UHGV virus genome: UHGV-0806601
Origin: a virus
Length of the DNA: 19,093 bases
Direction: 5' to 3' (one strand)
Part shown: positions 3,410 through 15,126 of the stretch, piece after piece
Layout: each line of letters starts with the position of its first letter
Numbering within the stretch: the first letter of the stretch is position 1
Program-made: the position numbers and the translations under genes
The notes under the pieces: generated by a model
Told to the model about the DNA's origin: nothing
Seen by the model: the letters and a program-made list of their open reading frames with translations, nothing else
Database searches by the model: none

Positions 3410-3429
3410 ATTTTAAATTTATTCAATAA

Positions 3430-3458
3430 ACGGGGTTTACTTCTTCAATAAACCCCGT
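3430..3458 (+). promoter_or_regulatory. intergenic stem-loop (ACGGGGTTTA ... TAAACCCCGT)
   Basis: A perfect 10-bp inverted repeat with a 9-nt loop. The flanks are AT-rich, but there is no clean T-tract on the plus strand. Confidence 0.4.
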
Positions 3459-3512
3459 ATACTTCATTCCATAAGCAGCACAACACTGACTCTGAAATGA
3501 AGGAACTACACC

Positions 3513-9922: not shown

Positions 9923-10104
9923 ATATTACTCTCGTGTGTTGGTTAACATGACATACATATTATTTCGCGTGCATGTTTAGACCAAATAAATTATTTTTGC
10001 TGTTGAATAAAAACTGCTTTCTTGTTGAACAATGGCGTGGTATTATACGAGTTGTGAGCGTTAGCGAACAACGAGTATTTGTTTTATGAGCGAAGCGAAT
10101 AGGA

Positions 10105-10151
10105 TTAATAAAGATTATTATCTTTAATAAAGGTTATTATCTTTAATAAAG
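10105..10151. repeat. tandem direct repeats with 19-nt period
   Basis: TTAATAAAG occurs at 10105, 10124 and 10143. Two near-identical units of about 19 nt, (A/G)TTATTATCTTTAATAAAG, sit at 10114-10132 and 10133-10151. Confidence 0.6.
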
Positions 10152-10154
10152 TCC

Positions 10155-10175
10155 ATAAATGCCGAAGGCATTTAT
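10155..10175. promoter_or_regulatory. perfect 9-bp inverted repeat (ATAAATGCC gaa GGCATTTAT)
   Basis: Hairpin or palindromic protein-binding site immediately after the tandem repeats, in the AT-rich region between the divergent 9922 gene and gp45. Confidence 0.45.
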
Positions 10176-10283
10176 TAATAACGCGTAGCGCAATTTGCCA
10201 CTTGTTCTATAAGCAAAACACAGCGATACTAGATTGCGTCAAACATGACTTGAACCCCCACTATATTTTGAGGATACATACAA

Positions 10284-10953
10284 ATGCAAGAGATCACTCT
10301 CTCCGAACGTACACTTCAGTTGCTGGCCAACTTTGAGACCATCAACCCATCTATCGTTCTGACACCGGGCAAGATGCTGCGCAGTATTAATGATTCTTCT
10401 ACTGTGATCGCCGTGGCGCAGATCGAAGAAGACTTCCCGTTTGAGTTCCCGATTCTGGACCTGACCAAACTTCTGGCCATCCAGCGCCTACCTTCCTTCA
10501 AAGGTGCCAAAGCCGAATTCCATCAGGACTACATCCTGTTGAAAGGCGAAAGTTCTCAGCTGCAATTCTGGCGTTCTGCTAAAGAACTCACGGTTGTCCC
10601 GGCTGATACTATTTGAACTGCCGTCTGTCGACTTTGAAGCGATCATCACTCCAGAGAAGATGAAAGAACTGACCCGCGCCTGCTCTACCCTAGGACATAA
10701 GACTGTGCGTCTGGTTGCTCAGGGTGGCAAAACACGCCTGGTTGCAACCACCACTACCCTGGACAACTCCAACAACTACACTGTTGAGCTGGGCGAAACC
10801 GCGCTGCCGGACTTCGTAATGCCACTGGATGTTGCCAACCTGAAAATGATCGAAGGCAACTACACTCTGCGTGCATGTGCTGATCTACAAATGGTGAACT
10901 TCCAATCATCCGACGCGACGATCAATTACTTCGTCGGCGCACAGATTGAGTAA
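10284..10953 (+). CDS. 45: sliding clamp (gp45 homolog), reading frame interrupted by a one-base frameshift near 10611-10616
   Basis: Two adjacent ORFs (10284-10616 and 10594-10953) together align collinearly with remembered T4 gp45 (FWRSAKELTVVPADTI / ELPSVDFEAIIT vs T4 FWPAADPSTVVAPNKPIPFPVASAVTEI). The second has no ATG (the track uses TTG). The shift maps to the T-run ACTATTTGAACTG. Confidence 0.7.
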
Positions 10954-12028: not shown

Positions 12029-12451
12029 ATGGCCGCTCTTGGATTGTTCGATTACCTGGCTGCTCTGAACAGCAGCAAAGAAAACCTTTTGCGGTCTGAT
12101 GACCCAGAAGTGTTGAAAGGATTCGACCCGTTTATGACGCGGCGTGGTTTAGCTCAGAGCAAAGACACTCTAGTGGCTGCGCAACAGATGAATAAGCTAC
12201 ATGCTATCACTCCATGGATGCAATGGTCATATGCCTTTTACACCATTCCGGCTCGGAAACGCTACGACAAATGGTCTAAGAAAGGTCCGATTGATCCTGA
12301 CGTGAAGTTACTCTCCGAGTACTTCTACATCAGCATGGAGAAGGCATCGGAGTACGTCCGTTTCTTGCCGAAGGAAGTCCTGGCCGAGATACGCGAGAAG
12401 ATGAGACGCACTGAGCTGAACGCCAAAGCGAAACCGCGCAAGGCTAAATAG
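12029..12451 (+). CDS. 62: clamp loader small subunit (gp62 homolog)
   Basis: Position immediately after gp44 as in T4. PARKRYDKWSKK resembles remembered T4 gp62 PRGKRYGKWAK. The start is ambiguous between 11996 and 12029. Confidence 0.6.
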   Translation: MAALGLFDYLAALNSSKENLLRSDDPEVLKGFDPFMTRRGLAQSKDTLVAAQQMNKLHAITPWMQWSYAFYTIPARKRYDKWSKKGPIDPDVKLLSEYFYISMEKASEYVRFLPKEVLAEIREKMRRTELNAKAKPRKAK

Positions 12452-12480
12452 TTCAAACTATTGTAAAAGGGGAATGAGTC

Positions 12481-12945
12481 ATGGCGCGTAATACGCTAGA
12501 CATATTGAATATTTCAGCAGTCAACGATGAGGCCAGCATCGTTGATTGTATGGTTGAAGTTCAATTGAACCAAGATCGGCCAGGTATATTCCTGGGGATC
12601 AAGGAAACACTGAGTCGAATTGGGGTAAACACGCGCCAAGAGCCGAATACTCTGTATCAGACTTGCCATATTCTTCATAAGTGTGGTAAGTATTATATCG
12701 TCCACTTTAAGCATCTATTTATGCTGGACGGGCATTACAACGGATTTAACCGCGAAGATGTCCTGAGGATGAACCGAATCATCAAGCTGCTGGAGCAGTG
12801 GAACATGGTGAAGGTCATTCATCCTGAGCAGGTCACCGAAGCAGCCGATATGTCTCGCATTAAAGTGGTTAAACACGATCAGGTTCCTGAATGGAAGCTG
12901 GTTCCAAAATACATCATCCGGCCTACGAAGGCAAAAAGCGAATAA
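12481..12945 (+). CDS. regA: RegA translational repressor homolog
   Basis: KETLSRIGVNT...LYQTCHILHKCGKYYIVHFK and EWKLVPKYII match remembered T4 RegA (KETLTRMGIAN...LYQSCHILQKKGLYYIVHFK; EWKLVPKYTI). An alternative start at 12550 would match T4 length better. Confidence 0.75.
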   Translation: MARNTLDILNISAVNDEASIVDCMVEVQLNQDRPGIFLGIKETLSRIGVNTRQEPNTLYQTCHILHKCGKYYIVHFKHLFMLDGHYNGFNREDVLRMNRIIKLLEQWNMVKVIHPEQVTEAADMSRIKVVKHDQVPEWKLVPKYIIRPTKAKSE

Positions 12946-13834: not shown

Positions 13835-13857
13835 GATATACAGTTATTCACTAAACA

Positions 13858-13886
13858 ACAGAGGCTATAATGGCCTCTGTTTTCGT
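13858..13886 (+). terminator. rho-independent terminator
   Basis: Stem ACAGAGGC / GCCTCTGT with a 7-nt loop, followed by TTTTCG. Confidence 0.5.
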
Positions 13887-13902: not shown

Positions 13903-15126
13903 ATGAAAGATAAAGCCCTAGACGTCCCGTACTGCGGTGTCCGTGAAGAAAAGATAAAGTCGGCCAAACCGGTTCTCAGTCCGACCCATACCCGCCTGTC
14001 TTACGAATGGATGAGCGAGCGCTATAAGATCCACGTCAAGAAGGATGTCCAGCGCCTTCCTGCTCCTTGGACTGATAATCCCATATTACGGCAGGTCAAG
14101 TTCTGTAATGTCCGGAGAGAGCACGACAGGCAGTCTCTCAACCTGATCAACAACATCGTCAACAACGATGCTCTGGGTATGGCCGACAAGATGTTCAACT
14201 GCGTGTTGTTCCGCATGTTCAACCTCTGGGATCCAATCCAGGCTATTGGCGGCGCGATGACGATCAAAGAATTCGCCAAGATCAACCTCGATACAACCCG
14301 CGAACGACTTCAGAAGTTCGAGGCCGACGGTGGTAAGGTATTCACCAATGCCTTCAACACGGGCGGCCTGAAGCAATGCCTGGCTTTCCCTGAGCTGGTT
14401 GTCAACCACAAAGAGCAGCGCTTCGGTGGGATGATGGTGAAAGTGTATCGCGTTGGCCAGGGTATTGTGGACGAGATGGACTACAAGGTCGCCAAGAAGC
14501 TGGTCGAAGAGAATCCTGGTGAATATACCATCGAGGGATGGGAACCGTACATGCCAATGCGTGTCATCCGCTCCCTGAAGGCATTCGTCAACAAGTATCC
14601 AAATTATTTCCATGACCTGCTGCGCCTTGGTACTCCTTTGGAAGTATACCAGCGCATGTACGACGACATCGAAGGGCTTGGTCCATTCTTGGCCTATCAG
14701 ATATGGGTTGACTTCACGTACATGCCGGGTTATCCGTTTAGTGAGAACCACTTCACGGTTGCTGGACCAGGCTGTCGCGCAGGTATTGATCTGCTGTTCC
14801 TGAACAAAGACGGTATGACTCACGAAGAATGCATCTTCTGGCTACGGGATAATCAGGACGCAGTGTACTCCCAATATGGGTATGTTCGCGAGCAATTCTG
14901 GTCGGCCGAAGAGCCTGTAGATCAGTGCATGAACGTTATGCAGCTGGAGAACATGTTCTGTGAACTGAGCAAGTACACCCGCTGTGTTGAGGCTGTACAG
15001 CAAGGTAAAAAACCGCGCGGGAAGGTCAGCTATGACGGCGGTGGGGAATACAAAAAGCGCTGTGATGAAGTCGTGCTCAAACGCGGTTCCGTCAATTTGC
15101 TGGACCGTTTGAAGAAACCTGAATAA
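13903..15126 (+). CDS. hypothetical protein (407 aa) with a helix-hairpin-helix-like motif
   Basis: YDDIEGLGPFLAYQIW fits the HhH signature h-x-x-h-x-G-h-G-x-x-x-A. Strong AGAGGA ribosome-binding site. No T4 homolog recognised. Confidence 0.5.
   Translation: MKDKALDVPYCGVREEKIKSAKPVLSPTHTRLSYEWMSERYKIHVKKDVQRLPAPWTDNPILRQVKFCNVRREHDRQSLNLINNIVNNDALGMADKMFNCVLFRMFNLWDPIQAIGGAMTIKEFAKINLDTTRERLQKFEADGGKVFTNAFNTGGLKQCLAFPELVVNHKEQRFGGMMVKVYRVGQGIVDEMDYKVAKKLVEENPGEYTIEGWEPYMPMRVIRSLKAFVNKYPNYFHDLLRLGTPLEVYQRMYDDIEGLGPFLAYQIWVDFTYMPGYPFSENHFTVAGPGCRAGIDLLFLNKDGMTHEECIFWLRDNQDAVYSQYGYVREQFWSAEEPVDQCMNVMQLENMFCELSKYTRCVEAVQQGKKPRGKVSYDGGGEYKKRCDEVVLKRGSVNLLDRLKKPE

What the first reader, a model, noticed from the sequence alone, without database searches (positions are those of the whole stretch)
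9923..10283. AT-rich 360-bp divergent intergenic region with 19-nt tandem repeats and a perfect palindrome
This is the largest non-coding gap in the window, lying between a minus-strand gene and the gp45 operon. The phased TTAATAAAG repeats (19-nt period) followed by ATAAATGCC-gaa-GGCATTTAT look like iterated protein-binding sites plus a hairpin. That fits a regulatory hub or a replication origin (T4 origins lie in promoter regions near recombination genes), not just a simple promoter.
Basis: partly seen in the sequence, partly recalled or inferred. Interest (0 to 1): 0.5.

Follow-up and report, generated by a model that had tools for sequence, protein, structure and literature searches.

The report
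Conserved three-copy structured control module
The repeats and palindrome are real, but they are only the variable tail of an undescribed non-coding module with conserved promoters and hairpins that occurs three times in every genome of this phage family, and whose function (small RNA, read-through control or replication start) is still open.

Summary
The window comes from an Ackermannviridae (ViI-like) phage. There is a 361-nt AT-rich gap (9923-10283), a 19-nt tandem repeat (10105-10151) and a perfect 9+9 palindrome (10155-10175).

The 19-nt repeat is not a conserved iteron array. Phages more than 96% identical carry 2, 3 or 4 TTAATAAAG boxes, and other genera have unrelated AT-rich sequence at that position.

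The conserved features are these:
- a promoter for the leftward 123-aa gene;
- a rightward promoter-like element, P1 (A-tract, -35, 17 nt, -10);
- two hairpins clamped by tandem G·A pairs (HP1 10046-10077, HP2 10083-10103), supported by compensatory changes across five genera plus the unclassified CRW-SP2;
- a second promoter, P2, and a conserved leader for gp45.

The unit P1 + hairpins + AT-rich tail + GC hairpin occurs three times per genome. The copies lie upstream of gp45, gp5 and gp6 in both whole genomes examined. The gp5 and gp6 copies add a pseudoknot that is supported by covariation. Rfam has no matching family.

A transcription-primed replication origin is not excluded. No transcript or replication data exist.

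The parts
9957..9985 (-). Promoter-like element for the leftward 123-aa gene: -35 TTGGTC (9985-9980), 17-nt spacer, -10 TAATAT (9962-9957). Predicted start near 9950.
   Evidence: Both hexamers fall on invariant columns of the 12-phage alignment: TTTAGACCAA at 9976-9985 and ATA.TA at 9957-9962. The hexamers match the consensus weakly (7 of 12) and were not flagged by the consensus scan. The assignment is inferred from conservation and spacing.
10008..10046 (+). P1, a rightward promoter-like element: A-tract TAAAAAC (10008-10014), -35 TTTCTT (10018-10023), 17-nt spacer containing the palindrome TTGTTGAACAA (10022-10032), -10 TATTAT (10041-10046). Predicted start near 10053/10054.
   Evidence: The same geometry (A-tract, 3 nt, hexamer, 17 nt, TAnnnT) holds in 12 of 12 copies from four genera and three loci. 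The script printed 11 directly. In the Taipeivirus gp6 copy it picked an earlier TAnnnT, and I assigned the correct hexamer (TTTTCT, 17 nt, TATGCT) by reading the sequence. Invariant columns. No transcript data exist.
10046..10077 (+). HP1: TAC-GA-GTTGT-GA-GC [GTTA] GC-GA-ACAAC-GA-GTA. Ten Watson-Crick or G·U pairs interrupted by two tandem G·A/A·G 2x2 loops. The tip GCGTTAGC is at 10058-10065.
   Evidence: Present in the minimum-free-energy RNA and DNA folds. 100% paired in 13 distinct sequences. Three pairs show changes on both sides. Miltonvirus has a coordinated 3+3 nt insertion and CRW-SP2 a stem extension. Loops vary among GTTA, TTT, GGA and GAA. U·G pairs favour the + strand.
10083..10103 (+). 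HP2: UUUAU-GA-GC [GAA] GC-GA-AUAGG. The core GAGC-loop-GCGA is at 10088-10098 and the tip GCGAAGC at 10090-10096.
   Evidence: The pair flanking the G·A clamp covaries (U-A in 4 sequences, C-G in 9). The clamp is kept in the gp5 and gp6 paralogues with loops GAA, GTA, AAA, ATA, AAC and TTCA, or with an 18-nt inserted helix. Model R1 scores window 10044-10105 at 81.9 bits.
10105..10151 (.). AT-rich 19-nt tandem repeat, 2.5 units. Its units form AT hairpins. The copy number is polymorphic.
   Evidence: TRF. 2, 3 or 4 boxes in near-identical phages. Absent from other genera. GC 0.225, among the ten most AT-rich 200-nt bins of the LHE287 genome.
10155..10175 (.). Perfect 9-bp palindrome with a 3-nt loop. 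It is the 3' stem-loop of the module. It can be extended by GTTATTA (10133-10139) pairing with TAATAAC (10176-10182).
   Evidence: The stem is kept in Aglimvirinae and Kuttervirus with loop GAA or GTCA. CRW-SP2 has a symmetric 1-nt insertion in both arms. The consensus scan calls it terminator-like only on the minus strand. The equivalent hairpin in the gp5 copies covaries, GGAAGC/GCTTCC against GGATGC/GCATCC.
10202..10230 (+). P2, a promoter-like element for gp45: -35 TTGTTC (10202-10207), 17 nt, -10 GATACT (10225-10230). Predicted start near 10237.
   Evidence: CTTGTTCTATA and GCGATACTA are invariant or nearly so. Miltonvirus has a strong TTGCAT-N17-TGgTATAAT at the matching place. Inferred only.
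10238..10283 (+). Conserved gp45 leader: small hairpin GTCA-AACA-TGAC (10238-10249), TTGAACCCC, and Shine-Dalgarno GAGGA (10270-10274) before the ATG at 10284.
   Evidence: Invariant columns. A RegA translational repressor homologue is encoded in the same operon at 12481-12945 (PF01818, E 2e-34). A link to RegA is inference from T4 biology.

Best explanation
The gap is a compound control region conserved across the enterobacterial Ackermannviridae.

Layout, left to right:
- a promoter for the leftward 123-aa gene;
- back to back with it, a rightward sigma-70-type promoter, P1, with an upstream A-tract;
- a transcribed element of about 55 nt made of two hairpins, each clamped by tandem G·A pairs (HP1, HP2);
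- an AT-rich hairpin stretch and a GC-cored palindrome, which together form the 3' stem-loop domain where the P1 transcript ends or is attenuated;
- a second promoter, P2, and a conserved leader that serve gp45.

The unit P1 + hairpins + AT-rich tail + GC hairpin is one of three paralogous copies per genome. The others lie upstream of the baseplate genes gp5 and gp6.

I take the unit to be a short, early, structured non-coding RNA gene of about 110-130 nt here. Its G·A-clamped hairpins would be a recognition motif for a protein. The 19-nt repeat is a slippage-generated, copy-number-variable expansion of the tail. The palindrome is the terminal stem-loop of the unit.

Shown: conservation, covariation, three copies per genome, constant promoter geometry, repeat polymorphism.

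Inferred: promoter activity, start site, termination, RNA rather than single-stranded DNA as the folded molecule, and the function.
For: Conservation: 273 phage records match the gap at 70-99% identity.

Repeat: it is an insertion in the window's lineage only, with 2, 3 or 4 boxes in close relatives.

HP1 and HP2: 95.9% of cells are paired, four pairs change on both sides, 0 of 500 shuffles reach the observed score, and slid controls fall to 20-47% paired. Insertions on the two arms are coordinated and loops vary freely.

Copies per genome: model R1 finds three copies in Serratia phage 3M and three in Escherichia phage LHE287. They sit at the same syntenic sites, each co-oriented with the gene downstream. 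The gp6 and gp5 upstream regions are conserved in 271 and 270 records.

Paralogues: they add a stem, a pseudoknot and a hairpin. All 195 cells are paired and five pairs change on both sides, including a pseudoknot pair.

P1: the geometry is kept in 12 of 12 copies, 11 as printed by the script and one (Taipeivirus gp6) assigned by eye.

Folding: the + strand RNA folds at -36.9 kcal/mol (z = -4.2) against -26.2 for the minus strand. Each copy ends in a GC hairpin that is kept by covariation or by symmetric insertions.
Against: - No transcript data exist for any member of the family in the searched literature.
- All three promoter assignments match the consensus weakly (7 of 12), and the consensus scan flagged none of them.
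- The predicted P1 start (about 10053/10054) lies inside the 5' arm of HP1. The outer stem, which does covary, would then be missing from this copy's own transcript.
- The palindrome has only three G-C pairs and no U-run on the + strand. The scan calls it terminator-like only on the minus strand.
- The hairpin tips GCGTTAGC and GCGAAGC are exactly the DNA mini-hairpin sequences, which are much more stable as DNA than as RNA and occur at phage priming sites (PMC13037366). A DNA-level role is therefore possible.
- No binding protein is identified.
Confidence: 0.4

Rival explanations
1. Transcription-primed replication origin of the T4 oriF/oriG/oriE or T7 primary-origin type. P1 makes a primer RNA that stays hybridised in the AT-rich segment, which acts as an unwinding element. 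HP1 and HP2 fold in the displaced + strand DNA or in the primer. The three modules are the genome's origins.
For: - The layout, promoter followed by an AT-rich stretch, matches T4 oriF/oriG. T4 oriE uses an early promoter and lies near repEA.
- There are three copies per genome, spaced roughly a third of a genome apart: 61, 106 and 147 kb of 149 kb, and 23, 72 and 115 kb of 159 kb.
- In the gp45 and gp6 copies the AT-rich parts are among the lowest-GC spots genome-wide.
- The sequence of the AT-rich part is free to vary while its composition is kept.
- The hairpin tips equal the DNA mini-hairpins found at the G4, St-1 and alpha3 priming sites.
- The folding strand is the non-template strand of P1.
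- The outer stem of HP1 overlaps the -10, which suits DNA better than this promoter's own RNA.
Against: - The AT-rich stretch is only 19-25 nt in the gp6 and gp5 copies of LHE287, short for an unwinding element.
- A pseudoknot with covariation is more typical of RNA.
- Cumulative GC skew is almost flat and uninformative.
- No initiator gene is adjacent.
- No replication data exist.
Confidence: 0.2
2. Cis-acting read-through control, like HK022 put or lambda nut. The two hairpins in the nascent P1 transcript modify RNA polymerase, alone or with a phage factor. Polymerase then passes the downstream stem-loops and expresses gp45-44-62-regA (and gp5, gp6) in a timed manner.
For: - The order promoter, two conserved hairpins, stem-loop, genes is the same as for put and nut (my own knowledge of those systems).
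- Every copy is co-oriented with the genes downstream.
- The hairpin sequence motif is conserved, as expected for a recognition site.
Against: - The downstream genes have their own promoters: P2 for gp45, and CTAAATA or CATAAATA late-type boxes for gp6 and gp5.
- The stem-loops are weak terminators.
- gp5 and gp6 are late structural genes, with no obvious need for early read-through.
- There is no sequence or structure similarity to put or nut, and Rfam gives no hit.
Confidence: 0.15
3. Ordinary divergent promoter region. The hairpins only stabilise 5' ends or insulate transcription units. The AT-rich stretch is an upstream promoter element or spacer. The three copies reflect duplication of a promoter-terminator cassette with no function of its own.
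For: - Perfect hairpins are common in this genome's intergenic regions.
- Mobile promoter/stem-loop cassettes are known in T4-type phages (my own knowledge).
- Module copies appear to be exchanged between lineages.
Against: - The G·A clamps are invariant, and stems, including a pseudoknot, are maintained by compensatory changes across five genera (plus the unclassified CRW-SP2) and three paralogues. That implies selection on a specific fold, not on generic stability.
- The nearest-neighbour energy of HP1-HP2 alone is unremarkable (z = -1.2 as DNA). They are therefore not simply strong hairpins.
Confidence: 0.17
4. One reading: the 19-nt repeats are iterons (iterated protein-binding sites) of an origin or regulatory hub.
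For: The boxes are exact and evenly spaced at 19 nt. T4 oriE has 12-nt iterons.
Against: - The copy number varies from 2 to 4 boxes among phages more than 96% identical.
- The repeat is absent from Kuttervirus, Taipeivirus, Miltonvirus and CRW-SP2.
- The motif occurs nowhere else in the window.
Confidence: 0.03

Closest known systems
T4 replication origins oriF/oriG (promoter + unwinding element, R-loop primer) and oriE (early promoter, iterons, near repEA); T7 primary origin (promoters followed by a 61-bp AT-rich region, my own knowledge)
   Same: A promoter is followed by an AT-rich stretch whose sequence is free but whose composition is kept. There are several copies per genome. One copy sits next to uvsW, one upstream of the gp5 homologue and one upstream of the gp6 homologue (T4 oriE lies near repEA).
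   Different: There is no MotA-type box at the right spacing. A conserved structured element of 55-110 nt lies between promoter and AT-rich part. The AT-rich part is very short in two of the three copies. The repeats are not conserved. No replication data exist.
HK022 put / lambda nut promoter-proximal antitermination RNAs (my own knowledge)
   Same: Two conserved hairpins lie just downstream of an early-type promoter and upstream of stem-loops and genes. There are a few copies per genome.
   Different: There is no sequence or structure similarity. The tandem G·A clamps and the pseudoknot are not features of put or nut. The downstream genes have their own promoters. The family is not in Rfam.
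DNA mini-hairpins GCGNAGC / GCGNNAGC at single-strand priming sites (G4, St-1, alpha3, ssiA; PMC13037366)
   Same: The window tips are exactly GCGTTAGC (10058-10065) and GCGAAGC (10090-10096). GNA or GNNA loops are frequent in relatives (GAA, GGA, GTA, GTTA, GTCA).
   Different: Relatives also use TTT, AAA, ATA, AAC and TTCA loops, or an inserted helix. So the tip is not constrained to the mini-hairpin family. The conserved part is the G·A clamp below it.
Bacterial and phage small RNA genes (promoter, structured body, terminal stem-loop)
   Same: The unit has an own promoter-like element, a covariation-supported body and a terminal hairpin, with paralogous copies.
   Different: The terminal hairpin lacks a canonical U-run. 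No target or partner is known. No expression data exist. Rfam release 15 has no matching family.

Membership tests
Iteron-type origin / iterated binding-site array | Three or more evenly spaced direct repeats conserved in number and sequence among relatives | tested here: not met
   2, 3 or 4 boxes in phages more than 96% identical. No such repeat in four other lineages.
Iteron-type origin / iterated binding-site array | Adjacent initiator (Rep) gene | tested here: inconclusive
   The neighbours are UvsW, a 123-aa protein with no Pfam hit (phrog_4255, function unknown) and gp45. No recognisable initiator was found, but small unknown proteins are present.
T4 oriF/oriG-type R-loop origin | Promoter directing transcription into the origin | tested here: inconclusive
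   P1 geometry is conserved in 12 of 12 copies (11 printed by the script, one assigned by eye), but the hexamers are weak and activity is untested. The TGCTTTC box lies 19 nt from the -10, not 11-13 nt as for MotA boxes (read; MotA spacing from my own knowledge).
T4 oriF/oriG-type R-loop origin | AT-rich DNA unwinding element of about 50 bp downstream of the promoter | tested here: inconclusive
   The window has about 75 nt at GC 0.23-0.31. The paralogues have 19-42 nt. Unwinding was not tested.
T4 oriF/oriG-type R-loop origin | Persistent RNA-DNA hybrid and replication initiation at the site | not testable with these tools
   Needs 2D gels, marker frequency or a plasmid replication assay.
Intrinsic (Rho-independent) terminator | G+C-rich stem followed by a run of U on the transcribed strand | tested here: inconclusive
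   The scan flags 10175-10155 on the minus strand only. On the + strand the tail is TAATAACG. The stem has three G-C pairs.
T4-type late promoter | TATAAATA, or the family's CTAAATA / CATAAATA box, about 20-40 nt before the ribosome-binding site and start codon | tested here: not met
   The palindrome arm reads CATAAATG. The five [CT]ATAAATG sites in LHE287 lack an adjacent ribosome-binding site and start codon (one has a match 66 nt away), whereas the 30 sites matching [CT]ATAAATA or CTAAATA often have one 18-37 nt downstream. The window has no TATAAATA.
Any Rfam family | Covariance-model match at or near the gathering score | tested here: not met
   The only hit is a chance-level MIR2617 match (17.9 bits against 46.5) in the window region. 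Nothing lies on the elements in the gp5 and gp6 copies. No tRNA or tmRNA.
DNA mini-hairpin (GCGNAGC / GCGNNAGC) | Exact motif sequence | tested here: met
   GCGTTAGC at 10058-10065 and GCGAAGC at 10090-10096. Motif definition from PMC13037366. Not all relatives keep a GNA or GNNA loop.
DNA mini-hairpin (GCGNAGC / GCGNNAGC) | Forms in single-stranded DNA in vivo and is used as a priming or recognition signal | not testable with these tools
   No tool here distinguishes RNA from single-stranded DNA folding.
Structured RNA element (general) | Base pairs maintained by compensatory substitutions on one strand | tested here: met
   A4: four pairs with changes on both sides, 95.9% paired, 0 of 500 shuffles. 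A5: five pairs, 100% paired, including a pseudoknot pair. G·U pairs occur on the + strand only. The same evidence would also fit single-stranded DNA.

The most novel reading that the evidence does not exclude
The three modules are the replication origins of Ackermannviridae, or R-loop sites that also load the gp45 clamp next to late promoters. An early host-polymerase transcript from P1 folds into G·A-clamped hairpins and, at gp5 and gp6, a pseudoknot. It stays hybridised in the AT-rich stretch and primes leading-strand synthesis. The displaced strand forms mini-hairpin DNA that recruits the primosome. This would be the first origin with a defined conserved sequence and structure in a T4-related lineage, where T4's own origins share no motif.
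Probability: 0.2. Interest if true: 0.8.

Novelty: new variant of a known kind. Interest (0 to 1): 0.6.

Why it matters
Ackermannviridae (ViI, CBA120, LIMEstone, Ag3 and relatives) are widely used biocontrol and therapy phages. I found no transcript or replication-origin mapping for them in the searched literature, so their transcription and replication control appear to rest on in-silico guesses.

A non-coding module that is conserved in about 270 genomes, present three times per genome, and held together by compensatory changes and a pseudoknot is a concrete, testable handle. It is either a new family of phage small RNAs or leaders with a distinctive G·A-clamped hairpin motif, or the long-sought sequence-defined origins of a T4-related lineage.

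The result also warns that eye-catching repeats can be recent slippage products sitting next to the real conserved signal.

Tried and rejected
- Rfam scans of the window region and of the paralogous copies gave nothing above noise. There is no tRNA or tmRNA.
- Small ORFs: five ORFs of 22-44 aa overlap the gap. Two records annotate small CDSs there. Indels that are not multiples of three in the multi-genus alignment argue against coding.
- Late promoter in the palindrome arm: rejected. CATAAATG does not fit the family's CTAAATA / CATAAATA boxes.
- MotA-type middle promoter: the TGCTTTC box is 19 nt from the -10, which is the wrong spacing (read; MotA spacing from my own knowledge).
- A minus-strand TATAAT (reverse of 10043-10048) with TTGTTC 18 nt upstream was considered as a second leftward promoter. 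The 6-nt hairpin insertion in Miltonvirus destroys that spacing while keeping the hairpin, so the hairpin reading is preferred.
- GC skew of two whole genomes is nearly flat and uninformative.
- The proteins next to the modules are unrelated to each other and have no Pfam domains.
- Distant relatives: Vibrio K476 and Pseudomonas Cygsa01 have no module. L117 has only a lone G·A-clamped tip on the other strand.
- Literature searches for transcriptomes, promoters or small RNAs of this family found only in-silico promoter predictions for LIMEstone1.
- Thermodynamics alone do not support HP1-HP2 (z = -1.2 as DNA). The support comes from covariation.

Full report
**Identity of the window.** The region 9500-10700 matches Ackermannviridae phages. 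The best hits are Escherichia phages vB_EcoM-ZQ1 and LHE287 at 98-99.8%, followed by Ag3, SKML-39 and the Dickeya LIMEstone group at 90-93%. In all of them the order is UvsW helicase, a small minus-strand hypothetical gene, a gap, then gp45 sliding clamp, gp44, gp62 and a RegA homologue.

- The gap 9923-10283 (361 nt) is the largest in the window.
- GC falls to 0.23-0.41, against about 0.5 in the flanks.
- TRF finds a 19-nt repeat at 10105-10151 (2.5 copies, 96% matches, score 87). The repeat finder lists three exact TTAATAAAG boxes and the perfect 9+9 palindrome at 10155-10175.
- No comparable tandem repeat arose in Markov simulations. Perfect 9-bp palindromes are about 14 times more frequent in the window than simulated (six against 0.44). 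Most of the others look like terminators.

**The repeat is young and variable.** A distant BLAST of the gap finds 273 phage records, nearly all covering the whole gap at 70-99% identity.

In a 12-phage alignment covering Agtrevirus-like phages, Limestonevirus, Kuttervirus, Taipeivirus and the unclassified CRW-SP2, one 19-nt unit is an insertion present only in the window. Direct comparison shows:
- 2 boxes in AV101, fGh-Ecl02, Ag3 and LIMEstone1;
- 3 boxes in the window and the IMG/VR contig L019 (LHE287 also has 3);
- 4 boxes in A221.

The two-box form is simply an AT hairpin (TTAATAAAGAT-tatt-ATCTTTAATAA). Kuttervirus, Taipeivirus and Miltonvirus have different AT-rich sequences at this place. 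This is the signature of replication slippage in an AT hairpin, not of iterons.

**The palindrome.** The stem is kept in Aglimvirinae and Kuttervirus with loops GAA or GTCA. In CRW-SP2 it has one extra A·T pair on both arms. That favours a stem-loop over a protein operator.

**What is conserved.** Four blocks are invariant or nearly so.

1. TTTAGACCAA and ATA.TA read, on the minus strand, as TTGGTC-N17-TAATAT. This is a promoter-like element placed correctly for the 123-aa gene.
2. TAAAAAC, 3 nt, TTTCTT, 17 nt, TATTAT (10008-10046) is a rightward promoter-like element, P1.
3. 10046-10103 forms two hairpins.
   - HP1 is TAC-GA-GTTGT-GA-GC [GTTA] GC-GA-ACAAC-GA-GTA. It is a 14-step helix in which two steps are tandem G·A/A·G pairs.
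   - HP2 is UUUAU-GA-GC [GAA] GC-GA-AUAGG.
4. TTGTTC-N17-GATACT (10202-10230) and the leader up to the gp45 start. Miltonvirus has a near-consensus TTGCAT-N17-TGgTATAAT at the same place.

The promoter hexamers match the consensus weakly and the consensus scan flagged none of them. Their assignment rests on conservation and spacing, so it is inference.

**The hairpins are real.** On 13 distinct sequences from Agtrevirus-like phages, Limestonevirus, Kuttervirus, Taipeivirus, Miltonvirus and CRW-SP2:
- all ten standard pairs of HP1 are paired in every sequence;
- three HP1 pairs and one HP2 pair show changes on both sides (C-G to U-A; U-A, U·G and A-U; A-U to U-A; U-A to C-G);
- 0 of 500 shuffles reach the observed covariation;
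- sliding the partner by 1-3 columns drops pairing from 96% to 20-47%.

Miltonvirus has three extra nucleotides on each arm of HP1 that keep the helix continuous, and CRW-SP2 lengthens the tip by two pairs. Loops change freely. The G·A steps never change. U·G pairs would be C·A on the other strand, so the + strand is the one that folds.

The + strand RNA of 10044-10185 folds at -36.9 kcal/mol (z = -4.2) and the minimum-free-energy fold contains HP1. Nearest-neighbour energy alone does not single out HP1-HP2 (z = -1.2 as DNA). The evidence is therefore evolutionary, not thermodynamic.

**The module occurs three times per genome.** A covariance model of HP1-HP2 (R1) finds three hits in the complete genome of Serratia phage 3M, a Miltonvirus whose gp45 is 54% identical. 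They lie upstream of gp45, upstream of the baseplate wedge gene and upstream of the baseplate hub/lysozyme gene.

The same three syntenic sites are hit in LHE287, the window's nearest relative: 105571-105632, 146897-146957 and 61106-61172. Every copy is co-oriented with the gene downstream. The gp6- and gp5-upstream regions are themselves conserved in 271 and 270 phage records.

**Comparison of 12 copies (four genera, three loci).** The comparison shows one architecture:
- an A-tract, a -35-like hexamer (TTTTCA, TTTTCT, TTTCTT or TTGGAC), exactly 17 nt, and TAnnnT (the Taipeivirus gp6 hexamers were assigned by eye);
- then hairpins;
- then the G·A-clamped HP2;
- then 19-76 nt of AT-rich sequence;
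- then a GC hairpin or a CGCGCGAG block;
- then the promoter of the downstream gene.

For gp5 and gp6 that downstream promoter is a late-type box (CATAAATACC or GGCTAAATATC). These boxes match the family's apparent late consensus CTAAATA.

**The gp5 and gp6 copies carry additional structure.** Except in Miltonvirus, they carry a stem (CAGCC/GGCUG or AUGCC/GGCAU). Its loop CCAU pairs with a downstream AUGG to make a pseudoknot, which becomes CCCU:AGGG in Taipeivirus. A further hairpin follows (GCCY-loop-RGGC). On 13 distinct sequences collected from IMG/VR, all 195 cells are paired. Five pairs change on both sides, including the pseudoknot pair.

No Rfam family matches any copy. R1 finds no module in the more distant Vibrio and Pseudomonas relatives.

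The 19-nt repeat and the palindrome are the 3' part of the gp45 copy of this module. They form an AT-rich, hairpin-prone tail that tolerates expansion, closed by a GC-cored stem-loop. GTTATTA (10133-10139) can also pair with TAATAAC (10176-10182) around the palindrome.

The palindrome arm CATAAATG is not a convincing late promoter. It is a weak terminator by the usual criteria. The scan flags it on the minus strand only.

**Mechanism.** My preferred reading is that P1 drives a short early transcript. That transcript folds into the G·A-clamped hairpins and ends, or is attenuated, in the AT-rich and palindrome domain. This makes it a small non-coding RNA unit, one of three paralogues, whose clamp motif is a protein recognition site.

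The main difficulties are these:
- There are no transcript data.
- The promoter hexamers are weak.
- There is no U-run after the palindrome on the + strand.
- The predicted P1 start (about 10053/10054) falls inside the 5' arm of HP1 in the gp45 copy, although that outer stem covaries. In the gp6 copies the whole of HP1 lies downstream of the predicted start.

The last point keeps a DNA-level role open. So does the fact that the tips GCGTTAGC and GCGAAGC are exactly the very stable DNA mini-hairpins found at the priming sites of phages G4, St-1 and alpha3 (PMC13037366).

**The origin rival.** The strongest rival is a transcription-primed origin. T4 oriF and oriG are a promoter followed by an unwinding element. 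T4 oriE uses an early promoter and lies near repEA. T4's origins share no motif (PMC3016281).

For this reading: the promoter plus AT-rich layout, three copies spaced about a third of a genome apart, and folding of the non-template strand.

Against it: the very short AT-rich stretch in two copies, the pseudoknot, and an uninformative GC skew.

**Other rivals.** A put/nut-like read-through element and a generic promoter-terminator cassette are the remaining rivals. The iteron reading is contradicted by the comparative data.

**Novelty.** Searches of the held literature found only in-silico promoter predictions for LIMEstone1 and no description of this element. I therefore treat it as an undescribed family of a known general kind: a promoter-proximal structured non-coding element. 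There is a minority chance that it marks replication origins.

Noticed in passing
window 10612-10614: gp45 carries one extra T (ACTATTTGAAC against ACTATTGAAC in Ag3, AV101 and L019). This splits the 669-nt gene into ORFs 10284-10616 and 10594-10953. LHE287 has the intact gene. It is probably a homopolymer sequencing error, or a real frameshift in an essential gene.
   Followed up: partly
window 3421-3474: A second tandem repeat lies in another intergenic gap (22 nt x 2.4, ATTCAATAAACCCCGTATACTTC). It contains the inverted repeat AAACGGGGTTTA / TAAACCCCGT followed by TATACT.
   Followed up: no
window ~12443-12455; LHE287 genome-wide: The family's late-promoter box appears to be CTAAATA(C/T)C, not T4's TATAAATA. 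LHE287 has 18 copies, many 18-37 nt before the ribosome-binding site and start codon of structural genes, and also before uvsW and regA. In the window, GGCTAAATAGTTC precedes the RegA homologue at 12481-12945.
   Followed up: partly
L131 46745-47125 (LHE287 146745-147125): The gp6-upstream module of LHE287 is about 94% identical to Kuttervirus Salmonella phages but about 79% to Ag3 and the Dickeya phages. The gp45-upstream gap shows the opposite pattern. This suggests exchange of module copies between lineages.
   Followed up: no
L117 2230-2310: A distant relative (148-kb IMG/VR contig, gp45 34% identical) has a 21-bp perfect palindrome whose tip is a G·A-clamped hairpin, TAG-GAGC-GGA-GCGA-CTA. 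It lies on the strand opposite to gp45 and is co-oriented with the divergent 249-aa gene. A similar GGAGCGAAGCGG lies about 90 nt away.
   Followed up: partly
window 10022-10032: The 11-nt palindrome TTGTTGAACAA lies in the spacer of P1. Its core TTGAAC is invariant across the 12 aligned phages and the flanks TG and A are nearly so. It is present only in the gp45 copy of the module. It could be an operator specific to this copy.
   Followed up: no
window 13857-13881: A terminator-like perfect hairpin (CAGAGGC...GCCTCTG followed by TTTTCG) has TATAAT in its loop. It lies between the 290-aa gene and the 5-hmdU DNA kinase gene at 13903-15126.
   Followed up: no
L119 1285-1640 (Serratia phage 3M): The homologue of the 123-aa minus-strand gene is annotated as only 35 aa in phage 3M, which gives an apparent 611-nt gap. 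The sequence suggests that the gene continues to a start near 1640.
   Followed up: no
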